Origin: Escherichia coli | GTDB taxonomy: Bacteria > Pseudomonadota > Gammaproteobacteria > Enterobacterales > Enterobacteriaceae | Direction: 5' to 3' (one strand) | Assembly: GCF_003991155.1 (NCBI RefSeq) | Contig: NZ_CP031296.1 | DNA: 60,038 bases | Shown: positions 3,001 through 9,000 of the stretch, in pieces | Numbering within the stretch: the first letter of the stretch is position 1 | How the letters are laid out: every line of letters starts with the position of its first letter | Position numbers: made by a program

Positions 3001-6000
3001 TGTTGTGCGGCAGAAAGAAGAAAGCCCCGTAGTTAATTTTTCATTAACCCACGAGGCGATCCCAATGCTTGAACAACATCAGGATAGCCTCTTACCGCGC
3101 GTTACGCAAGGAGAAGAAGGCCATGAAACTACCGGGAAACGCCCTTATCTGGTGCGTATTAATCGTGTGCTGCACGTTGTTAATATTCACACTCCTGACC
3201 CGGAATCGCCTGTGCGAAATCCGGCTGAAGGACGGATACAGGGAGGTTACGGCAAGCATGGCTTACGAATCCGGCGGTAAGTAGCAACCCGGAGGCGGGC
3301 GAAAGCCCGCCTTTTTGGGGATGATGTGGTTCTGGCATTAAGCGCCTTTACAAAGGGGGTATTCTGTACGGATACCCCCTTTTTCCATGTATTTTCAGGA
3401 TATTAACTGGTGAATATGGTATAATTAGTCAATATGACAGCAATTATTGAGGCGAGTATGCAGCCCAAAAAAACACCCGTGATTGTGGTCAAAAAACGCC
3501 GCGTTCTGGTCATGCCAGAAAATCCTGTGGTGAATGAAAAGCCGCAGGAAGTACAAAAATCAGCAGTTAATGAAAACAAGAAAGTACAGAAGAAAGATGC
3601 TGTAGCAGAGAAAACACGTAAAAAGCAGCCTCAGCCCTGGTATTTGAAAAAACAAATCACTTTTCCCCCAAAATATCCGAAAGAATATTTTGAAAAGTGT
3701 TTCAATAAAGTTCGTGCTGTTTTTCCTGAACTATGGACAGACGAAAAAAAGAACTTGCCCCTGAAAAGCGGGATTCTCCAGGACGTTGAGAAATACCTGG
3801 CGGATAACCCGGATGTGGATCTGACGATTGAAGAGTGGAATTGTGCGGTTCAGGTGATGACGTTCCGGTGGCAATATCTTCAGAATTGTACTGTACCAGG
3901 CGCAACACGTTACGACCTTTACGGGAAACCTGCTGGTACAGTAAAAAAAGCACACGCAACTTATGCGCAACTGGTTCTCGATGCCCGTAAGAAAGCCAGC
4001 GAGAAGAAACAATTAAAACGTAAGGGATAAAGCCCCGAAGGGCTTTATCATTTCAGCCTGGCTGACTGTAGAATCCAGTGATTTTTTCCGTTTTCGTCCA
4101 GGCCGTGTTCGTAAGCTGCAAGAGCCGCTTTCATTATTGCTGTTTTTGTCTGGCCTGTTCGCAGTGCTTCCCGTTCCAGAATATCTTCGTAAACGTCCCC
4201 AAGCCGGACATTGGTCACTTTAGTTGCTCCCGATTTTTTGCGGGTAGCTTCATTGATGAATCGGGCTGTGTCTGCATTGGTTTGTTCTGTTTTTTGTCCT
4301 GGTATTACCGGAGTTTTCAAGTCAAGAGCCATTATATCACCTTTCGTGTGTTACATTAGCTTTACTGTGTAAAGTTAATGATGTAAAGCTGTCGTATTAC
4401 ATCCATTAGGGATTGATGCCTAACTCTTGCGCCAAAAGCTCTATTTGTGCTTTAGCTGTAGAAAGGCTGGATGCGCGACGTACATCATGAACGCCAGCGC
4501 CTTCATTACAGGCCGCTTCAAAAATATCTAAATCTGAAATACGTGTACGAAGTGGCTGTATCCACACCGGGTTCTCCCGGAGTAACTTGTCGAGATCAAT
4601 CGCTGCTTTTCTGTGGCGTGGTTTTGTCGTGTTAATTCTCGTGAAAAGTACCCAGGGTTGCAGGTCTGGATTGATCTGTTGAGCTGTGCGAACTTTTTCT
4701 GTTACATGAGTCAGCGTTTCTGCTTCGAAATCTGAAGACGGCTTAACGAGAGTAAGCAGAATGTCAGCTACAGTTAAGGCACTGCGAAATTCCTTGCTGT
4801 CATGCCCTGGACAGTCAATGATCAGCACTTCACATATTTTTTTCAGGCGCTTAATGACTTCTGATACATCGCCATACTCTTCATAAACAGGAACCGGTAA
4901 TAAGCCATTCTGCTTTCTTTTTTCGTTCCAGCTAAGAATATCATTGTTTTTATCGGTCTTCAGAATGATGACCGTTCGTGAATTATTTACCAGATAAGAA
5001 GCCAGGTTTGTTGCTGTGGTGCTTTTTCCTACACCGCCTTTATCTGATGCGACAAGTAATGCTCTCCCCATAGAAACCTCGGATATACAGTGTAAAGGTT
5101 TATTTGTCTTTACATTGTATTCATTATAGTTACGTTGTAAAGATGTTCGTGTCTTTACAATGTAATTGTTTTTTGCGCTTTACATTGTGTGTATGTTACA
5201 GGGTAACTTTTCAGGATGCGATTTTGCCTGGTGTGTTGTTGCGCCCGTAGCTCGCTGACGCTCACACGCGCAGTACAGCGCCCCGCCCTGCTGCAATGCA
5301 CCAGGACGGCGTAAACTCGCTGGCGCTCGCGCTAACTGCGGCATTCTGCGGCGCAAATCAGCATGATCATGGCCTGTCAGTCCGTTGGGCTTTGCAGGGT
5401 GAAGGGATGGCCCTGTGCATCCTGGTATGTTCGTCAGCGGCTGCGCCGCGCTTCGGGGCGATGTGGCCCCGCTGCTCCCTGGTATTTTCTTTCGCCCCTT
5501 CTATGCCCTGCCGGGCATTGCATGAATGTAAATATTTGTATTTAACGATATTTATTTTAAAGAAAGGAGGAAAAAATACTTGATAATAGGTCAGTTCTGA
5601 CCTATTATAAACACATCGAGAGGGGATGGTCCCCAATCACCAAAGCCGCTCAGCGGCAGGAGCTTAAAAATGGAAAACCACGCCAAATTTGTTGCTACTG
5701 AAATTCTTAATCAGCTTGGTGGAAACCGCTTTATTGCTATGACAGGCGCAAAGAACTTTGCCTGTTTTGATGAAAATGGTGAGTCTGGTCTTTGCTTTCG
5801 TTTACCTTCAAATTTTGCAATGAAGGGAATTAATTTGGTTAAAATCAAATTAACCTTCTCTGATACATACCTGGTGACATTTTCCCGTGTCTGTGGAGCT
5901 ACAGTAAAAGAAATATCAAAATTTGATAATATTTATTGTGATCAGCTTGAATGTTTATTTAATGAACAAACCGGACTTGCAACCAGATTGTAATTTTTAA

Positions 6001-9000
6001 TATGGGGGGGATTCCCCCCATATCAGGAGGATAAATGAAAGTTCTTATTGGTAATATAAATATTGATAATTATCATATGCTGTCTGCATTAGCTGGGATT
6101 GCGGGATTTGACAGGAGCATTGAGTTTACATGTGAAATATCAGCAAGTATCGAAATTATGGAGGATGATTTCGTAAATAAAGCTGGTATATTAAAGATGT
6201 TAGATGAATTTATTGAAAATGATTTTTCAATAAAGCTCGTCTAGAAAATACTTGATAATAGGTCATTTGTGACCTATTATTAATGCATTGAGAGGGGATG
6301 GTCCCCAATCGCCAAAGCCGCTCAGCGGCAGGAGTTAAACATGAAACAATCTACTTTTCCTGCTATCGTCTCTACAACTGGTCATGTGTTTTCTGTTGTG
6401 CGCGTGACGCTTTGCACAATTTGCCTTAAACATGAAAAAACAGGCGAGGCTTATGTCGTCATTTTTACAGACTGCCATAATATCCGTGATTATAAAAAAG
6501 GCGTTGTTCCGGTTCTTGGGGAGCTTTATCAGGAAGATGTCGATTTGATTACCGGAAAAAGTTAAAAGAAAGGGGCTATATGCCCCTTTACTGTTAAAAG
6601 GGGAGACTATCTCAATATGAAGATAAGAAAAGGTGACAGACAATATTATCTGAATAAAGAAGGTGATACGTTTCATCTGGTGAAGCGAGTAAAAACTTTT
6701 TCTAAGTCTGCGACTTTAGGAAAAACGAAAGCAACGGTGAAAACTGTTGCCGATCTTGTTTTTCATGAGAAGGCATTCGACACTATCGACTTTGCCAGCG
6801 ACGGATTAAGAGAGAATGATAAAGAAATTGTTTCTATGATGATTCAGGAAATGAGTGAGGGAAAAAATGCCAAATGAAAACACACCAGAAAACATTAAAC
6901 GTCTGCGGCAAAAAATTGGCCTGACACAGAAAGAATGTGCCGAAATATTTAGCATGAGTCCGCGTACCTGGCGTCGCAAAGAAGAACCTGTCGGAACTGC
7001 AAGCGGTACAGCACTTACACCAGTAGAGTTTAAATTTCTTCTGCTTTTAGCTGGAGAACACCCTGATTATGTACTTTGTAAAAGGAATAAAAAGAATTCT
7101 GATTCTGGAAGTAATTAAGGAATATTAAGATGAAAATAGAATTAACGTATGACGAAATCACGGAATAAGCTACAAAAACCATAACTGAATTTATGGCTGG
7201 ACTTAATAGCCCCAGTTGCATTGAACAATGAGCAATTGCGCCCGTAGCTCGCTGACGCTCACACGCGCAGTACAGCGCCCCGCCCTGCTGCAATGCACCA
7301 GGACGGCGTAAACTCGCTGGCGCTCGCGCTAACTGCGGCATTCTGCGGCGCAAATCAGCATGATCATGGCCTGTTGGTCTGTTCTGGCTTTGCAGGGCGA
7401 AGGGATGGCCCTGTGCATCCTGGTATGTTCGTCAGCGGCTGCGCCGCGCTTCGGGGCGATGTGGCCCCGCTGCTCCCTGGTATTTTCTTTCGCCCCTTCC
7501 ATGCCCTGTCGGGCATTACATGAATGTAACTATATGTATTTGATAGCGTTTTTTTTGAAGAATGGAGGGAAAAATACTTGATAATAGGTCAGTTCTGACC
7601 TATTATAAACACATCGGGAGGGGATGGTCCCCAACCACCAAAGCCGCTCAGCGGCAGGAGCATGAAAATGCATTTCACAACTTTTCTAAAAAAACATTTC
7701 GATATAGAAAAAGTCGTTGGTACTTCTGATTCTGGAAATGATACCGAATCTATTTATGTTTATGAAAAAGGAAATGATTGCGAACCGTTGTTTATTCTGC
7801 ATGAATCCTGGCTAAATGCAGAAATTAAAAAGTGTGGGGTATGGACTATTGGCAATATATATTCCACATTGGAACACGGAAAAGAATATTCTGAACAGGA
7901 ACTAATAAAAATGATTAAGGAGGGTAAAGTAATCAGCAAATACTAATTTGGGGTTGGTAACAGGCTGTGGGGCAGCCTGTTACCAAATGACAGATGCATC
8001 TTTGGAGATTCTCAAATGTCAGTATGTGAAATGATAGAGCTTGCAAACCGCATTGTAAATGGGGAACCTGTAAAAACACCCGCGATAGAAGCATGGATTA
8101 TTAGCGAAATCATTTGGTGGGCGCATAACCGGGATAATGCTTTAGTTTGAGTCATATATGGGGAGAGTGTCATGCTCTCCCTTTCTTATTGGGTAGCGCG
8201 TTGTATTACATAGTTAGCTTTACGTTGTAAAGATTTTATTGTCTTTACAGTGTGGTGCGTTTTCCGGCGGTTGCGCTGCGCTTAGGGGGATGTGGCCTCG
8301 CTGCTCCCTGGTATTTTCTTTCACCCTTCTATCTGATAACTTTTCTTGAAAGAGGCTGGGGTTTTATGAAACATTTAAAATATAAAGGATATTTAGGTAC
8401 AGTTGAGCCGGATTTTGAAAATAATATCCTGCATGGAAAGCTGGCATTTATTCGAGATCTGGTGACTTTTGAGGCAGAAACATTAGCTGACCTGGAACGG
8501 GAATTTAAAACATCGGTTGATTTGTATTTACAGTCCTGTGTGGAGGACGGAAAGGAGCCTGACGCGCCCTTTAAAGGTGTGTTTAACGTCAGGCTTGATC
8601 CAGAGCTAGGCACTGGAAAAAGAAGTCATTAATCATCGCGCAGGGGCTTAATCGCCCCTTTTTGTTGCTCGCTGGCGTTGGTGTTTTCTGGTATTACGAT
8701 GTAGTGTGTTGTATTTACAAGTAATGATTTACGTTGTATTACGATGTATACTCTTTAATTGCTTGCAATCTCTTTTCACGTTCGTTGCTTTGTTCAGCCT
8801 TTTTCAGTTCACTGAATATGTACTCTTCATCTTTACCCGTGAGTTTTGAACCGGAGAGCAAGCGATTAACAACTTTACGTCGAATTGTGGGGTAATCTTT
8901 GGTTTGAGCGAGTATGGACAATATGCGGTCACTGCTAAGAATCTGGCCTTTCCCTGATTCTACATAATGTAGAAAAAATGCGATTGCTGACACGCCCAAA

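What the first reader, a model, noticed from the sequence alone, without database searches (positions are those of the whole stretch)
5583..7606. One palindromic operator (ATAATAGGTCAG-TT-CTGACCTATTAT) reused in front of three separate small genes
The 26 bp palindrome occurs at 5583-5608, 6255-6280 (variant with a 4 nt spacer) and 7581-7606. Each time it is followed about 15 bp later by the same hairpin pair (GGGGA-TGG-TCCCC and GCCGCT-CA-GCGGC) and an RBS. This points to a single dimeric DNA-binding regulator coordinating three unrelated cassettes, and the conserved hairpins suggest a shared 5' UTR structure. The regulator is not identified; the small HTH proteins at 2578 and 6867 are candidates.
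Basis: seen in the sequence. Interest (0 to 1): 0.6.

Follow-up and report, generated by a model that had tools for sequence, protein, structure and literature searches.

The report
Shared repressor-controlled promoter cassette, plasmid entry genes

Summary
A 95-nt unit occurs three times (5573-5667, 6245-6339, 7571-7665). Each unit has a near-consensus sigma-70 promoter (TTGATA-17 nt-TATTAT) whose spacer is filled by the palindrome, followed by a ~55-nt leader with two hairpins, AGGAG and ATG.

Copies 1 and 3 end a ~435-nt repeat. Its GC-rich core is homologous to the CUP (conserved upstream repeat) elements of IncN plasmids, and the third cassette's gene is a CcgD homologue (49% identity).

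The unit also occurs in IncX1/3/4/5/6, IncL (pOXA-48) and related plasmids. There both palindrome arms change together into at least seven classes. Each class goes with one recognition-helix variant of a small Xre-type HTH protein, here 6867-7118, the last gene of cassette 2. One plasmid without this gene has decayed palindromes. The other candidate (2578) is rejected.

Best reading: an autoregulated dimeric repressor shuts off three plasmid-entry (leading-region) operons. Binding, repression and transfer direction are inferred. The pOXA-48 homologue, orf20, was shown essential in 2025 with unknown targets. This is a new variant of a known kind (the IncN CUP/ArdK regulon).

The parts
5239..5579 (+). 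CUP-like GC-rich core, copy 1, the upstream part of the ~435-nt repeat
   Evidence: Direct repeat with 7236-7577. Aligns with the IncN R46 CUP elements and with the IncX4 and pFOS18 cores. Folded as single-stranded DNA, the minus strand gives z = -4.1. The consensus structure has 40 pairs, 11 with compensatory changes.
5580..5608 (+). Promoter 1: TTGATA (-35), 17-nt spacer, TATTAT (-10). The operator palindrome 5583-5608 fills the spacer and overlaps both hexamers.
   Evidence: 10 of 12 consensus matches.
5615..5669 (+). Leader 1 (the transcription start near 5615 is inferred): hairpin 1 at 5622-5634, hairpin 2 at 5645-5657, AGGAG at 5658-5662
   Evidence: Hairpin 2 shows compensatory changes across plasmids.
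5670..6244 (+). Cassette 1 genes: 5670-5993 (107 aa, phrog_9437) and 6035-6244 (69 aa, phrog_1585). Function unknown.
6252..6280 (+). Promoter 2 with operator palindrome 6255-6280 (central TTTG). There is no CUP core upstream.
6287..6340 (+). Leader 2: hairpins at 6294-6306 and 6317-6329, AGGAG at 6330-6334
6341..6877 (+). Cassette 2 genes: 6341-6565 (74 aa) and 6617-6877 (86 aa). The 86-aa gene is the conserved partner that always precedes the HTH gene and overlaps its start.
   Evidence: Synteny is seen.
6867..7118 (+). Proposed repressor: an 83-aa Xre-type HTH protein that resembles the C-terminal domain of MqsA. It is the last gene of cassette 2, hence autoregulated.
   Evidence: Pfam PF20432 at 1e-6 and MqsA_antitoxin C-terminal part at 1e-4. 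PDB profile hits to MqsA C-terminal domain and Aca3. AlphaFold2 model with pLDDT 84, closest to Aca1, HigA2, HipB and MqsA C-terminal domain. Its recognition helix tracks the operator class.
7236..7577 (+). CUP-like GC-rich core, copy 2
7578..7606 (+). Promoter 3 with operator palindrome 7581-7606
7613..7667 (+). Leader 3: hairpins at 7620-7632 and 7643-7655, AGGAG at 7656-7660
7668..7946 (+). Cassette 3 gene: homologue of CcgD, a CUP-controlled gene of IncN R46
   Evidence: BLASTP 49% identity, E = 1e-34. The start at 7668 aligns with M1 of CcgD.
8285..8326 (+). 42-nt fragment of the CUP core (93% identity) upstream of a HicB-like ORF (8366-8632). It has no palindromic promoter unit and is probably a remnant cassette.

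Best explanation
Each copy is a promoter-operator-leader cassette.

- **Promoter.** A near-consensus sigma-70 promoter (TTGATA-17-TATTAT) drives a short operon.
- **Operator.** The 20-26-bp palindrome occupies the spacer and overlaps the -35 and -10 hexamers. It is the operator for a dimer of the 83-aa Xre-type HTH protein encoded at 6867-7118.
- **Circuit.** That gene is the last gene of the second cassette, so the protein represses its own operon and the other two. This is a three-operon autoregulated regulon.
- **Timing (inferred).** The cassettes point toward oriT on the side opposite the relaxase gene, so this should be the leading region. In a fresh recipient no repressor is present, the strong promoters fire, the repressor accumulates and the regulon shuts off (zygotic induction, kil/kor-like logic).
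- **Leader (inferred, lower confidence).** The conserved leader has a 5'-proximal hairpin and a second hairpin abutting AGGAG. It probably stabilises the mRNA and keeps the ribosome-binding site exposed whatever gene follows.
- **CUP core.** The GC-rich core upstream of copies 1 and 3 is a separate module homologous to IncN CUP elements and is structured as a single strand. Its role is open.

Shown here: the sequence anatomy, the homologies and the covariation. Inferred: binding, repression, the transcription start site and the direction of transfer.
For: **1. Geometry.** Three of the four best promoter-like sites in 5000-8700 are these units (10/12 matches, 17-nt spacer). The palindrome overlaps both hexamers.

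**2. Covariation.** In 30 distinct units from about 16 plasmid lineages the arms are 90% complementary. Five of 9 arm positions change on both sides, and 0 of 500 shuffles reach the observed score. The central 2-6 nt vary freely.

**3. Discrete operator classes, each paired with one HTH recognition-helix variant**:

| Operator | Helix | Plasmids |
|---|---|---|
| ATAGGTCA-N4-TGACCTAT | R(T/S)WRRKEE | IncI2, pEC4115, IncX6, L020, L021 |
| TACCGCAC-N2-GTGCGGTA | LSNWQRKES | pFOS18, pMB7536_4 |
| ATACGNC-N6-GNCGTAT | (I/L)RTWQKKEE | IncX4, pXH1508-4, L018 |
| ATACATC-N6-GATGTAT | LSTWQKKE | L016/L017 |
| TACCATCA-N2-TGATGGTA | LSAWQAKET | IncX3, IncX5, IncX1b |
| ATACCTGCA-N2-TGCAGGTAT | LNSWQMKES | IncX1 |

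Two predictions made from the helix before the DNA was read held (L020 and L021, class A). A third (L018) fell in the neighbouring ATACGNC class.

**4. Copies within a plasmid.** In every plasmid that carries the HTH gene, all copies belong to one operator class, though some copies have a degenerate left arm (Pantoea, pXH1508-4, L018).

**5. Natural knock-out.** pRHB30-C03_4 has four units with intact promoter and leader but decayed palindromes. No HTH homologue is found in 34.7 kb of its 35.1-kb record; record positions 1-377 were not fetched.

**6. pOXA-48.** The regulator is a tandem fusion of two HTH domains with different helices. The spacer site is an imperfect palindrome (ATATGGC-N6-G(T/A)CGTAT) present at two promoters.

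**7. Autoregulation.** The HTH gene always sits in an operon headed by such a unit.

**8. Fold.** The protein is an Xre HTH. Its nearest solved relatives are small dimeric repressors that bind palindromes at their own promoters: Aca1-DNA, HipB, HigA2, the MqsA C-terminal domain and restriction-modification controller (C) proteins.

**9. Experiment on the homologue.** pOXA-48 orf20 cannot be deleted unless supplied in trans, and silencing it causes plasmid loss (PMC12365149, PMC12361523). This is as expected for a repressor of costly genes.
Against: - No binding, footprint, reporter or transcription-start data exist for this plasmid or, in the searchable literature, for any family member.
- The HTH gene and its operators are physically linked and co-inherited. 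The helix/operator correlation could therefore partly reflect shared ancestry rather than recognition.
- pFOS18 and pMB7536_4 have identical helices but differ at the outermost operator position.
- The structural matches are weak (Foldseek E about 4e-3) and say only 'small Xre HTH'.
- The leader fold of one copy alone is not significant (z = -1.6).
- Hairpin 1 shows no double changes in the aligned set.
- The leading-region assignment rests on the general MOBP rule that relaxase genes enter last. The nick site was not located.
Confidence: 0.66

Rival explanations
1. The palindrome is an operator, but for a different protein: the conserved 86-aa partner (6617-6877), the 53-aa HTH at 2578-2739, another plasmid regulator or a host factor. 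The 6867 HTH would then do something else, for example act as an antitoxin-like protein.
For: The 86-aa gene is as tightly syntenic with the units as the HTH gene. NCBI annotates the HTH as 'antitoxin Xre-like'. Nothing shows binding.
Against: pRHB30-C03_4 keeps the 86-aa partner but lacks the HTH, and its palindromes have decayed. pEC4115 has the operator but no homologue of the 2578 gene. A host factor would not explain seven or more plasmid-specific operator classes. In pOXA-48, deletion of the upstream orf19 has no phenotype, whereas orf20 (the HTH) is essential (PMC12365149).
Confidence: 0.1
2. The palindrome acts as a nucleic-acid structure rather than a protein site. It could be a hairpin in the transferred single strand (part of a single-strand promoter or priming signal together with the CUP core), or a terminator for antisense transcription.
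For: The arms covary, which a hairpin would also produce. The minus-strand scan flags it as terminator-like. The surrounding CUP core is strongly structured as single-stranded DNA, and single-strand promoters are known in F and IncI1 leading regions (PMC12672017).
Against: - The arms fall into discrete classes that track a protein's recognition helix.
- The outer ATA/TAT is invariant.
- The pOXA-48 site is only 5/7 symmetric and matches a two-domain regulator.
- Copy 2 has no CUP core.
- The hairpin would pair the -35 with the -10 and so could not rebuild a promoter.
- The stem is AT-rich, and no gene converges from the minus strand.
Confidence: 0.08
3. The HTH protein is an activator bound in the spacer (MerR-like), or the site is neutral.
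For: Spacer-bound activators exist (the MerR family).
Against: The spacer is the optimal 17 bp and the hexamers are near consensus, so no activator is needed. The protein has no MerR features. The units in the HTH-less plasmid keep an intact promoter. The essentiality of pOXA-48 orf20 fits repression of harmful genes.
Confidence: 0.05
4. The repeats are recombination or duplication debris, or the ends of a mobile element, with no regulatory meaning.
For: Copies 1 and 3 are part of a 435-nt direct repeat. The number of cassettes varies among IncI2 plasmids, from 3 to 4 units.
Against: There is no transposase and there are no terminal inverted repeats. The unit always sits at a fixed distance upstream of a start codon, with promoter, Shine-Dalgarno sequence and ATG in register. 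It is conserved at the same position across IncI2, IncX, IncL and IncN backbones.
Confidence: 0.03

Closest known systems
[quoted passage not shown]
   Same: - Several same-orientation operons in the leading region each begin with a repeated element of a few hundred bp that contains a promoter and a repressor site.
- The repressor gene (ardK) is itself preceded by a related CUP site (CUPA) and autoregulates.
- The GC-rich core here aligns with R46 CUP in conserved blocks such as CGCAGTAC(A/G)GCGCC and CCTTCCATGCCCTGNCGGGCAT.
- The leader start CATCG(A/G)(A/G)AGG is shared.
- Cassette 3 carries a CcgD homologue.
- Recombination between repeats changes the cassette content in both systems (PMC5371602).
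   Different: - The window has no ArdK, ArdR or KorA homologue, and ArdK is unrelated to the HTH protein.
- The operator is a different sequence: a spacer-filling palindrome with plasmid-specific arms.
- The leader hairpins differ.
- The open-access literature searched mentions CUP elements only for IncN.
pOXA-48 (IncL) orf19-orf20 operon; Orf20 = DNDJGHEP_0014, an 'Xre-like regulator'
   Same: Orf20 contains two domains homologous to the 83-aa protein (42.9% identity, E = 4e-9; alignment). Its operon and a neighbouring gene are headed by the same promoter-spacer site-leader architecture. Experiments show it is essential for plasmid maintenance (PMC12365149, PMC12361523).
   Different: It is a tandem two-domain single chain, and its site is an imperfect palindrome. 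Its targets and mechanism are not known in those papers. The link to the promoters noted here is my inference.
Anti-CRISPR-associated (Aca) repressors and restriction-modification controller (C) proteins
   Same: These are small dimeric Xre-type HTH proteins encoded at the end of operons of small, fast-evolving genes behind strong promoters. They bind palindromes overlapping the promoter to shut expression off after an initial burst on entering a new cell. They are the nearest solved folds (Aca1-DNA 7vjm/7c0g, Aca10, C.Kpn2I) and give a weak sequence hit to Aca3.
   Different: The similarity is at the level of generic HTH proteins (E about 1e-2 to 1e-5). No known anti-CRISPR or restriction-modification gene lies in the cassettes. 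The element is a plasmid, not a phage or a restriction-modification system.
MqsA antitoxin (C-terminal HTH domain) and Xre-like antitoxins (PF20432)
   Same: This is the best Pfam and PDB sequence similarity. MqsA also binds a short palindrome in its own promoter (from my own knowledge of the MqsA literature).
   Different: The protein is only 83 aa with two cysteines, so it has no zinc-binding toxin-neutralising N-domain. The upstream partner matches no NCBIfam family and only one weak PHROG family of unknown function. The half-site arrangement also differs.
KorA/KorB/KorC global repressors of IncP (RK2) and KorC of IncU/IncL plasmids
   Same: The logic is the same: plasmid-encoded repressors bind palindromes in or near the core promoter of several operons, including their own, and losing them is deleterious (kil/kor). 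The predicted pOXA-48 KorC site also lies between -35 and -10 (PMC12365149).
   Different: No significant sequence similarity to pOXA-48 KorC or R46 KorA. The operators are different.
Frpo/ssi single-strand DNA promoters of F and IncI1 leading regions
   Same: Located upstream of leading-region genes that point toward oriT. The CUP core is strongly structured as a single strand.
   Different: No sequence similarity was found. No -35/-10 pair rebuilt in a stem could be identified. The unit itself is an ordinary double-strand promoter.

Membership tests
IncN-type CUP-controlled regulon | A repeated conserved element at the 5' end of several same-orientation operons next to oriT | tested here: met
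   There are two full ~435-nt copies, one 95-nt copy and one 42-nt fragment. All are on the plus strand, 4.5-7.6 kb from the mobC/relaxase genes.
IncN-type CUP-controlled regulon | Sequence homology to the R46/pKM101 CUP elements | tested here: met
   MAFFT alignment A1 shows conserved blocks through the GC-rich core. blastn gives a 22-nt match at 95%, E = 5e-4, at four R46 CUP copies and 91% at a fifth. There is a shared consensus structure. The homology is distant and does not extend to the operator.
IncN-type CUP-controlled regulon | Each element carries a promoter | tested here: met
   TTGATA-17-TATTAT, 10/12 consensus matches, three times. This is a consensus match only; no transcription-start data exist.
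IncN-type CUP-controlled regulon | An ArdK repressor and an ArdK-binding site | tested here: not met
   tblastn of R46 ArdK, ArdR and KorA against the window gives no hit. ArdK against the HTH protein gives no alignment.
IncN-type CUP-controlled regulon | Controls ccg/ard-type establishment genes | tested here: met
   7668-7946 is a CcgD homologue, 49% identity, E = 1e-34. The other cassette genes have no R46 homologue.
Xre-family dimeric HTH repressor with a palindromic operator at its own promoter | Xre-type helix-turn-helix fold | tested here: met
   Pfam PF20432 at 1e-6. PDB profile hits at 3e-6 to 1e-4. AlphaFold2 model with pLDDT 84 and four helices. Foldseek finds Aca1, HipB, HigA2 and MqsA C-terminal domain.
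Xre-family dimeric HTH repressor with a palindromic operator at its own promoter | A palindromic site overlapping the core promoter of the operon that encodes the regulator | tested here: met
   The unit at 6252-6280 heads the operon 6341-7118. The same arrangement occurs in every other plasmid examined that carries the HTH gene.
Xre-family dimeric HTH repressor with a palindromic operator at its own promoter | Operator sequence co-varies with the recognition helix | tested here: met
   Six symmetric operator classes are each paired with one helix variant, and the asymmetric pOXA-48 site makes a seventh. One HTH-less plasmid has decayed sites. The lineages are not independent of phylogeny.
Xre-family dimeric HTH repressor with a palindromic operator at its own promoter | Specific DNA binding, dimerisation and repression | not testable with these tools
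   This needs EMSA or footprinting and reporter assays.
MqsRA-type toxin-antitoxin system | An N-terminal zinc-binding toxin-neutralising domain and an MqsR toxin partner | tested here: not met
   The protein is 83 aa with only two Cys (positions 24 and 71). The Pfam match covers only model positions 70-126 of 131 of MqsA. The partner ORF matches no NCBIfam family and only one weak PHROG family of unknown function.
Frpo/ssi single-strand promoters | A large hairpin on the transferred strand that rebuilds the -35 and -10 boxes | tested here: inconclusive
   The minus strand of 5225-5625 folds with z = -4.1, and the core has conserved pairs, 11 of them compensatory. No promoter-like hexamer pair was identified in a stem. 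The transfer strand is inferred.
Described RNA families (Rfam 15) | A match of the leader or the CUP core to a curated model | tested here: not met
   No match at E <= 1 in 4900-9700 apart from a chance isrO hit at 9055-9245.

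The most novel reading that the evidence does not exclude
The 83-aa protein and its relatives (found in 4,248 of 72,556 PLSDB plasmids, including IncI2 and IncX4 mcr-1 plasmids, IncX3 NDM plasmids and IncL OXA-48 plasmids) would be the master repressors of plasmid establishment regulons. They would form a set of mutually orthogonal repressor-operator pairs built on one conserved promoter/leader chassis.

Three things would follow:
- It would explain why pOXA-48 orf20 is essential.
- It would allow the regulon of each plasmid to be predicted from sequence.
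- A resident plasmid of the same class (for example pEC4115 or IncX6 against IncI2) would silence the early genes of an incoming one. That would be a form of establishment interference between otherwise compatible plasmids.

The CUP core would add a single-strand mode of expression ahead of the double-strand, repressible promoter.
Probability: 0.3. Interest if true: 0.78.

Novelty: new variant of a known kind. Interest (0 to 1): 0.6.

Why it matters
IncI2 and IncX4 plasmids spread mcr-1, IncX3 plasmids spread blaNDM-5, and IncL plasmids spread blaOXA-48. Two 2025 studies found the pOXA-48 member of this regulator family essential for plasmid maintenance but could not say what it controls.

The anatomy found here gives a concrete and cheap-to-test answer. 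It provides a predicted operator for each plasmid group, a predicted regulon (the small genes next to oriT and the regulator's own operon) and a mechanism (promoter occlusion after an entry burst).

If this is right, it links the old IncN CUP/ArdK concept to a much larger set of clinical plasmids. It also supplies a natural set of orthogonal repressor-operator pairs, points to possible anti-plasmid targets (de-repression appears to be deleterious) and predicts cross-talk between co-resident plasmids that share an operator class.

Tried and rejected
- **2578-2739 (53-aa HTH) as regulator.** Rejected. It has no homologue in pEC4115, which has the same operator three times.
- **ArdK, ArdR or KorA as regulator.** No homologue in the window. 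KorC of pOXA-48 is not related to the HTH protein.
- **Mobile-element end.** There are no transposase genes or inverted terminal repeats, and the unit is always in register with a start codon.
- **The short match of the CUP core to large IncF plasmids (H58).** This lay in a colicin region, not a leading region, so it was uninformative.
- **Scan of representative genomes for the leader motif.** Only four loci were returned, mostly the same plasmids. The plasmid collection and the protein look-ups were far more useful.
- **Known families for the cassette genes.** NCBIfam and PADLOC gave nothing. PHROGs gave only families of unknown function. No anti-defence role can be claimed.
- **Rfam.** No family matches the leader or the CUP core.
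- **Rebuilding a -35/-10 pair in the single-strand fold of the CUP core.** None was found by inspection, so this is left open.
- **R46 CUP core against the plasmid collection.** This found IncN-type copies in 1,929 records but no link to the IncI1 or F single-strand promoters.
- **Literature searches**. None found a description of this unit or of its operator in IncI2, IncX or IncL plasmids. The original CUP paper (PubMed 9300052) is not held, so what I say about it comes from papers that cite it.

Full report
**1. Source and observation**

The window is an IncI2 conjugative plasmid. It is 99.8% identical over the region to pE228-MCR-66K, which is typed IncI2, MOBP, MPF_T.

ATAATAGGTCAGTTCTGACCTATTAT lies at 5583-5608 and 7581-7606 (none in 100 shuffles). 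ATAATAGGTCATTTGTGACCTATTAT lies at 6255-6280. The two hairpins and AGGAG follow 13 nt later in all three copies.

The repeated unit is 95 nt long (5573-5667, 6245-6339, 7571-7665; 91-96% identity). In copies 1 and 3 it is the 3' end of a ~435-nt direct repeat (5239-5672 and 7236-7670). No other operator copy exists in the 60 kb.

**2. Anatomy**

Each unit reads TTGATA, then a 17-nt spacer, then TATTAT. This is a 10/12 match to the sigma-70 consensus, and these are three of the four best promoter-like sites between 5000 and 8700.

The palindrome runs from the last three bases of the -35 hexamer to the end of the -10 hexamer. Anything bound there would exclude RNA polymerase.

If transcription starts about 7 nt after TATTAT (inferred), the leader is about 55 nt. 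It reads CATCGAGA, then hairpin 1 (GGGGA-TGG-TCCCC), ten bases, then hairpin 2 (GCCGC-TCA-GCGGC) directly abutting AGGAG, and ATG 7 nt later.

The operons are as follows.

| Cassette | Genes |
|---|---|
| 1 | 5670-5993 and 6035-6244 |
| 2 | 6341-6565, 6617-6877 and 6867-7118 |
| 3 | 7668-7946 |

All are on the plus strand and point toward mobC (12849) and the relaxase gene (13187-17500).

**3. The long repeat is a CUP-type element**

The GC-rich core is 93% identical to a segment of ~33-kb IncX4-type plasmids, and the whole repeat is 88% identical in pEC4115.

Aligned with the upstream regions of ardA, ccgD and ccgAI of the IncN plasmid R46, the core shares blocks of conserved sequence. It also shares a consensus single-strand structure of 40 pairs, 11 of them with compensatory changes.

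The gene behind copy 3 is a homologue of R46 CcgD, a 'CUP-controlled gene' (49% identity, E = 1e-34).

In IncN plasmids, CUP (conserved upstream repeat) elements head several leading-region operons. Each contains a promoter and a binding site for the repressor ArdK, which also represses itself (PMC6289460, PMC5371602, both citing Delver & Belogurov 1997).

Copy 2 has the 95-nt unit without the core.

Another IncI2 plasmid has four units and three cores. Cassettes are therefore gained and lost, presumably by recombination between repeats.

**4. The regulator is not ArdK**

The window has no ArdK, ArdR or KorA homologue.

The protein at 6867-7118 is an 83-aa Xre-type HTH. Pfam matches PF20432 at 1e-6 and the C-terminal part of MqsA at 1e-4. 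A profile search of the PDB finds the MqsA C-terminal domain, Aca3 and the phage 434 and P22 repressors.

The AlphaFold2 model has pLDDT 84. It is closest, weakly, to Aca1 bound to palindromic DNA, and to HigA2, HipB, Aca10, the MqsA C-terminal domain and restriction-modification controller proteins. All of these are small dimeric repressors that bind palindromes at their own promoters. The protein lacks the zinc domain of MqsA.

**5. Comparative test**

The same promoter/leader chassis heads operons in several other plasmid groups:

- IncX1, X3, X4, X5 and X6
- IncL pOXA-48
- pEC4115, pFOS18, pMB7536_4 and pXH1508-4
- a Pantoea plasmid and several unnamed Salmonella contigs

In each, an ~85-aa gene and a homologue of the HTH gene lie at the end of one such operon.

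The spacer always holds a symmetric site of the form ATA-NNNN-(N6)-NNNN-TAT, but the inner bases differ between plasmids, on both arms together. Counted on 30 distinct units:

- the arms are 90% complementary;
- 5 of 9 positions change on both sides;
- no shuffle reaches the observed score;
- sliding the partner column drops pairing to about 40%.

The classes match the sequence of the HTH recognition helix.

| Arm core | Recognition helix |
|---|---|
| GGTC(A) | R(T/S)WRRKEE |
| CCGCAC | LSNWQRKES |
| CGNC | (I/L)RTWQKKEE |
| CATC | LSTWQKKE |
| CCATCA | LSAWQAKET |
| CCTGCA | LNSWQMKES |

I predicted the operator class from the helix for newly found proteins before reading their DNA. Two predictions (L020, L021) were exact. 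One (L018) fell in the neighbouring CGNC class.

In every plasmid that carries the HTH gene, all units belong to one class, although some copies have a degenerate left arm.

pRHB30-C03_4 has four units with intact promoter and leader, but the symmetry of the spacer is lost. No HTH homologue is found in 34.7 kb of its 35.1-kb record; record positions 1-377 were not fetched.

In pOXA-48 the regulator is a tandem fusion of two HTH domains with different helices. The site is only 5/7 symmetric and is the same at both promoters.

pEC4115 shares the window's operator and the HTH protein but has no homologue of the 53-aa protein at 2578.

These lineages are related and the gene is linked to its sites. 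The correlation is therefore strong circumstantial evidence, not proof.

**6. Experimental link**

The pOXA-48 homologue is orf20 (DNDJGHEP_0014). In a transposon study it could be deleted only when supplied in trans, and recipients of the deleted plasmid stopped dividing or lost the plasmid (PMC12365149). In a CRISPRi screen, silencing it caused plasmid loss (PMC12361523). Both papers state that its targets and mechanism are unknown. This phenotype is what one expects from losing the repressor of strong promoters in front of costly genes.

The family is present in 4,248 of 72,556 PLSDB plasmids (tblastn).

**7. Mechanism proposed**

A dimer of the 83-aa protein occupies the spacer palindrome of the three promoters and blocks RNA polymerase. 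Its own gene lies in the second operon, so the circuit is negatively autoregulated.

By the usual geometry of MOBP plasmids the relaxase gene enters last. On that basis, which is inference because the nick site was not mapped, the cassettes lie within the first ~8 kb to enter a recipient, and the transferred strand is their template. In a naive cell the promoters would fire until the repressor accumulates.

The optimal spacer and near-consensus hexamers argue against an activator.

**8. The leader**

Hairpin 2 keeps its position against AGGAG while its sequence changes:

| Variant | Where seen |
|---|---|
| GCCGC/GCGGC | the window and other class-A plasmids |
| GCCCG/CGGGC | pFOS18, pMB7536_4 |
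| GCCC/GGGC | pXH1508-4, IncX4, IncX1/X3/X5 |
| GTCC/GGAC | L016/L017 |
| GCGCC/GGCGC | pOXA-48 |

Hairpin 1 is mostly conserved in sequence (G4/C4). It is replaced by GGGAA/TTCCC in IncX3 and by other stems in IncX1 and pOXA-48.

One copy folded alone is not significant (z = -1.6). The case for structure is therefore comparative, and it is firmer for hairpin 2.

The start of the leader, CATCG(A/G)(A/G)AGG, is shared even with IncN CUP.

I read the leader as a portable module that protects the 5' end and keeps the ribosome-binding site open. A protein-binding role is possible and untested, for example CsrA through the two GGA motifs. No Rfam family matches.

**9. The CUP core**

As a single strand it is much more structured than shuffled controls (z = -4.1), and its pairs are conserved from IncI2 to IncN. 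This fits a role on the transferred single strand, such as priming or single-strand transcription as in F and IncI1 (PMC12672017). However, I could not find a rebuilt -35/-10 pair, and there is no sequence similarity to those elements. Its function is left open.

**10. Verdict**

The thing is a CUP-type leading-region regulon, a kind known from IncN since 1997. It is run here by a different and uncharacterised repressor-operator family with plasmid-specific specificities, on a conserved promoter/leader chassis shared by several of the most important resistance plasmid groups.

I found no description of it in the searchable literature. It is a new variant of a known kind. Its interest lies mainly in making the unexplained essentiality of pOXA-48 orf20, and the control of early genes in IncI2 and IncX plasmids, directly testable.

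Noticed in passing
window 5084-5119, 5129-5164, 5154-5189, 8219-8254, 9225-9260, 9364-9399: A second repeated operator-like motif, TTTACAnTGTAAAG-N9-GTCTTTACAnTGTA, occurs six times. The copies lie between the parA-like gene (4406-5071, minus strand) and the first CUP core, upstream of the HicB-like ORF at 8366, and between the 147-aa gene (8739-9182, minus strand) and hicA (9479). It looks like a separate regulon or a partition-site family. The same motif (TTTACAATGTAAAG) appears upstream of the dnaJ unit in IncX3.
   Followed up: no
window 8285-8632: A 42-nt fragment of the CUP core (93% identity) sits in front of an 88-aa HicB-like ORF (phrog_9151, E = 7e-36) that lacks the palindromic promoter unit. 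A complete hicA/hicB pair lies further on at 9479-10123. This is probably a decayed or rearranged cassette.
   Followed up: partly
window 7131-7169: A 12-codon remnant ORF (MKIELTYDEITE*) lies between the HTH gene and CUP copy 2. A database relative (P0015) carries the same peptide continued further (…EQAIKTITEFMA) at the end of a frameshifted HTH product. A gene may therefore have been truncated here.
   Followed up: no
window 3434-4030 and 2788-3109: A ProQ/FinO-family protein (NCBIfam ProQ 3e-13, FinO 7e-7) is encoded just downstream of a 125-nt direct repeat (2788-2912 and 2985-3109, 89% identity). It may correspond to the copy-number regulator PcnR reported for IncI2 plasmids; that link is from memory and was not checked.
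   Followed up: no
window 15558-15899: An 18-nt tandem repeat of about 14-19 copies (a 6-aa periodic repeat) lies inside the 1437-aa relaxase gene.
   Followed up: no
window 12540-12690 and 12725-12790: Upstream of mobC there are many copies of GTGTGGGT(G/T)-type repeats. They are followed by an inverted repeat, CGATTGTACA...TGTTACAATCG. This is likely the oriT with its accessory-protein sites. The nick site was not identified.
   Followed up: no
window 29932-29978 and 30433-30479: A 47-nt repeat pair contains an internal palindrome (CCGGATTGGCAC...GTGCCAATCCGG), with the central part inverted between the two copies. It may be a recombination site of a shufflon-like region.
   Followed up: no
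L022 (pOXA-48-like) 4728-5207 and promoters near 4150 and 5690: pOXA-48 orf20 is a tandem duplication of the HTH domain. The spacer site of the two promoters with the conserved leader is only partly symmetric (ATATGGC-N6-G(T/A)CGTAT). This is a single-chain pseudo-dimer with an asymmetric operator.
   Followed up: partly
L013 (pRHB30-C03_4) about 5960, 6625, 8160, 8910: In the plasmid that lacks the HTH gene, a different 10-bp palindrome, GTAATATTAC (GTAACATTAC in one copy), sits about 20 nt upstream of the -35 hexamer (roughly -55 to -65 from the predicted start) of all four units. This may be a replacement operator for another regulator.
   Followed up: no
window 5670-5993 and 6035-6244: The two genes of cassette 1 belong to phage protein families of unknown function (phrog_9437 at 8e-27, phrog_1585 at 1e-10). 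They are therefore shared between plasmid leading regions and phages. No known defence family matched in PADLOC, and no anti-defence library was searched.
   Followed up: partly
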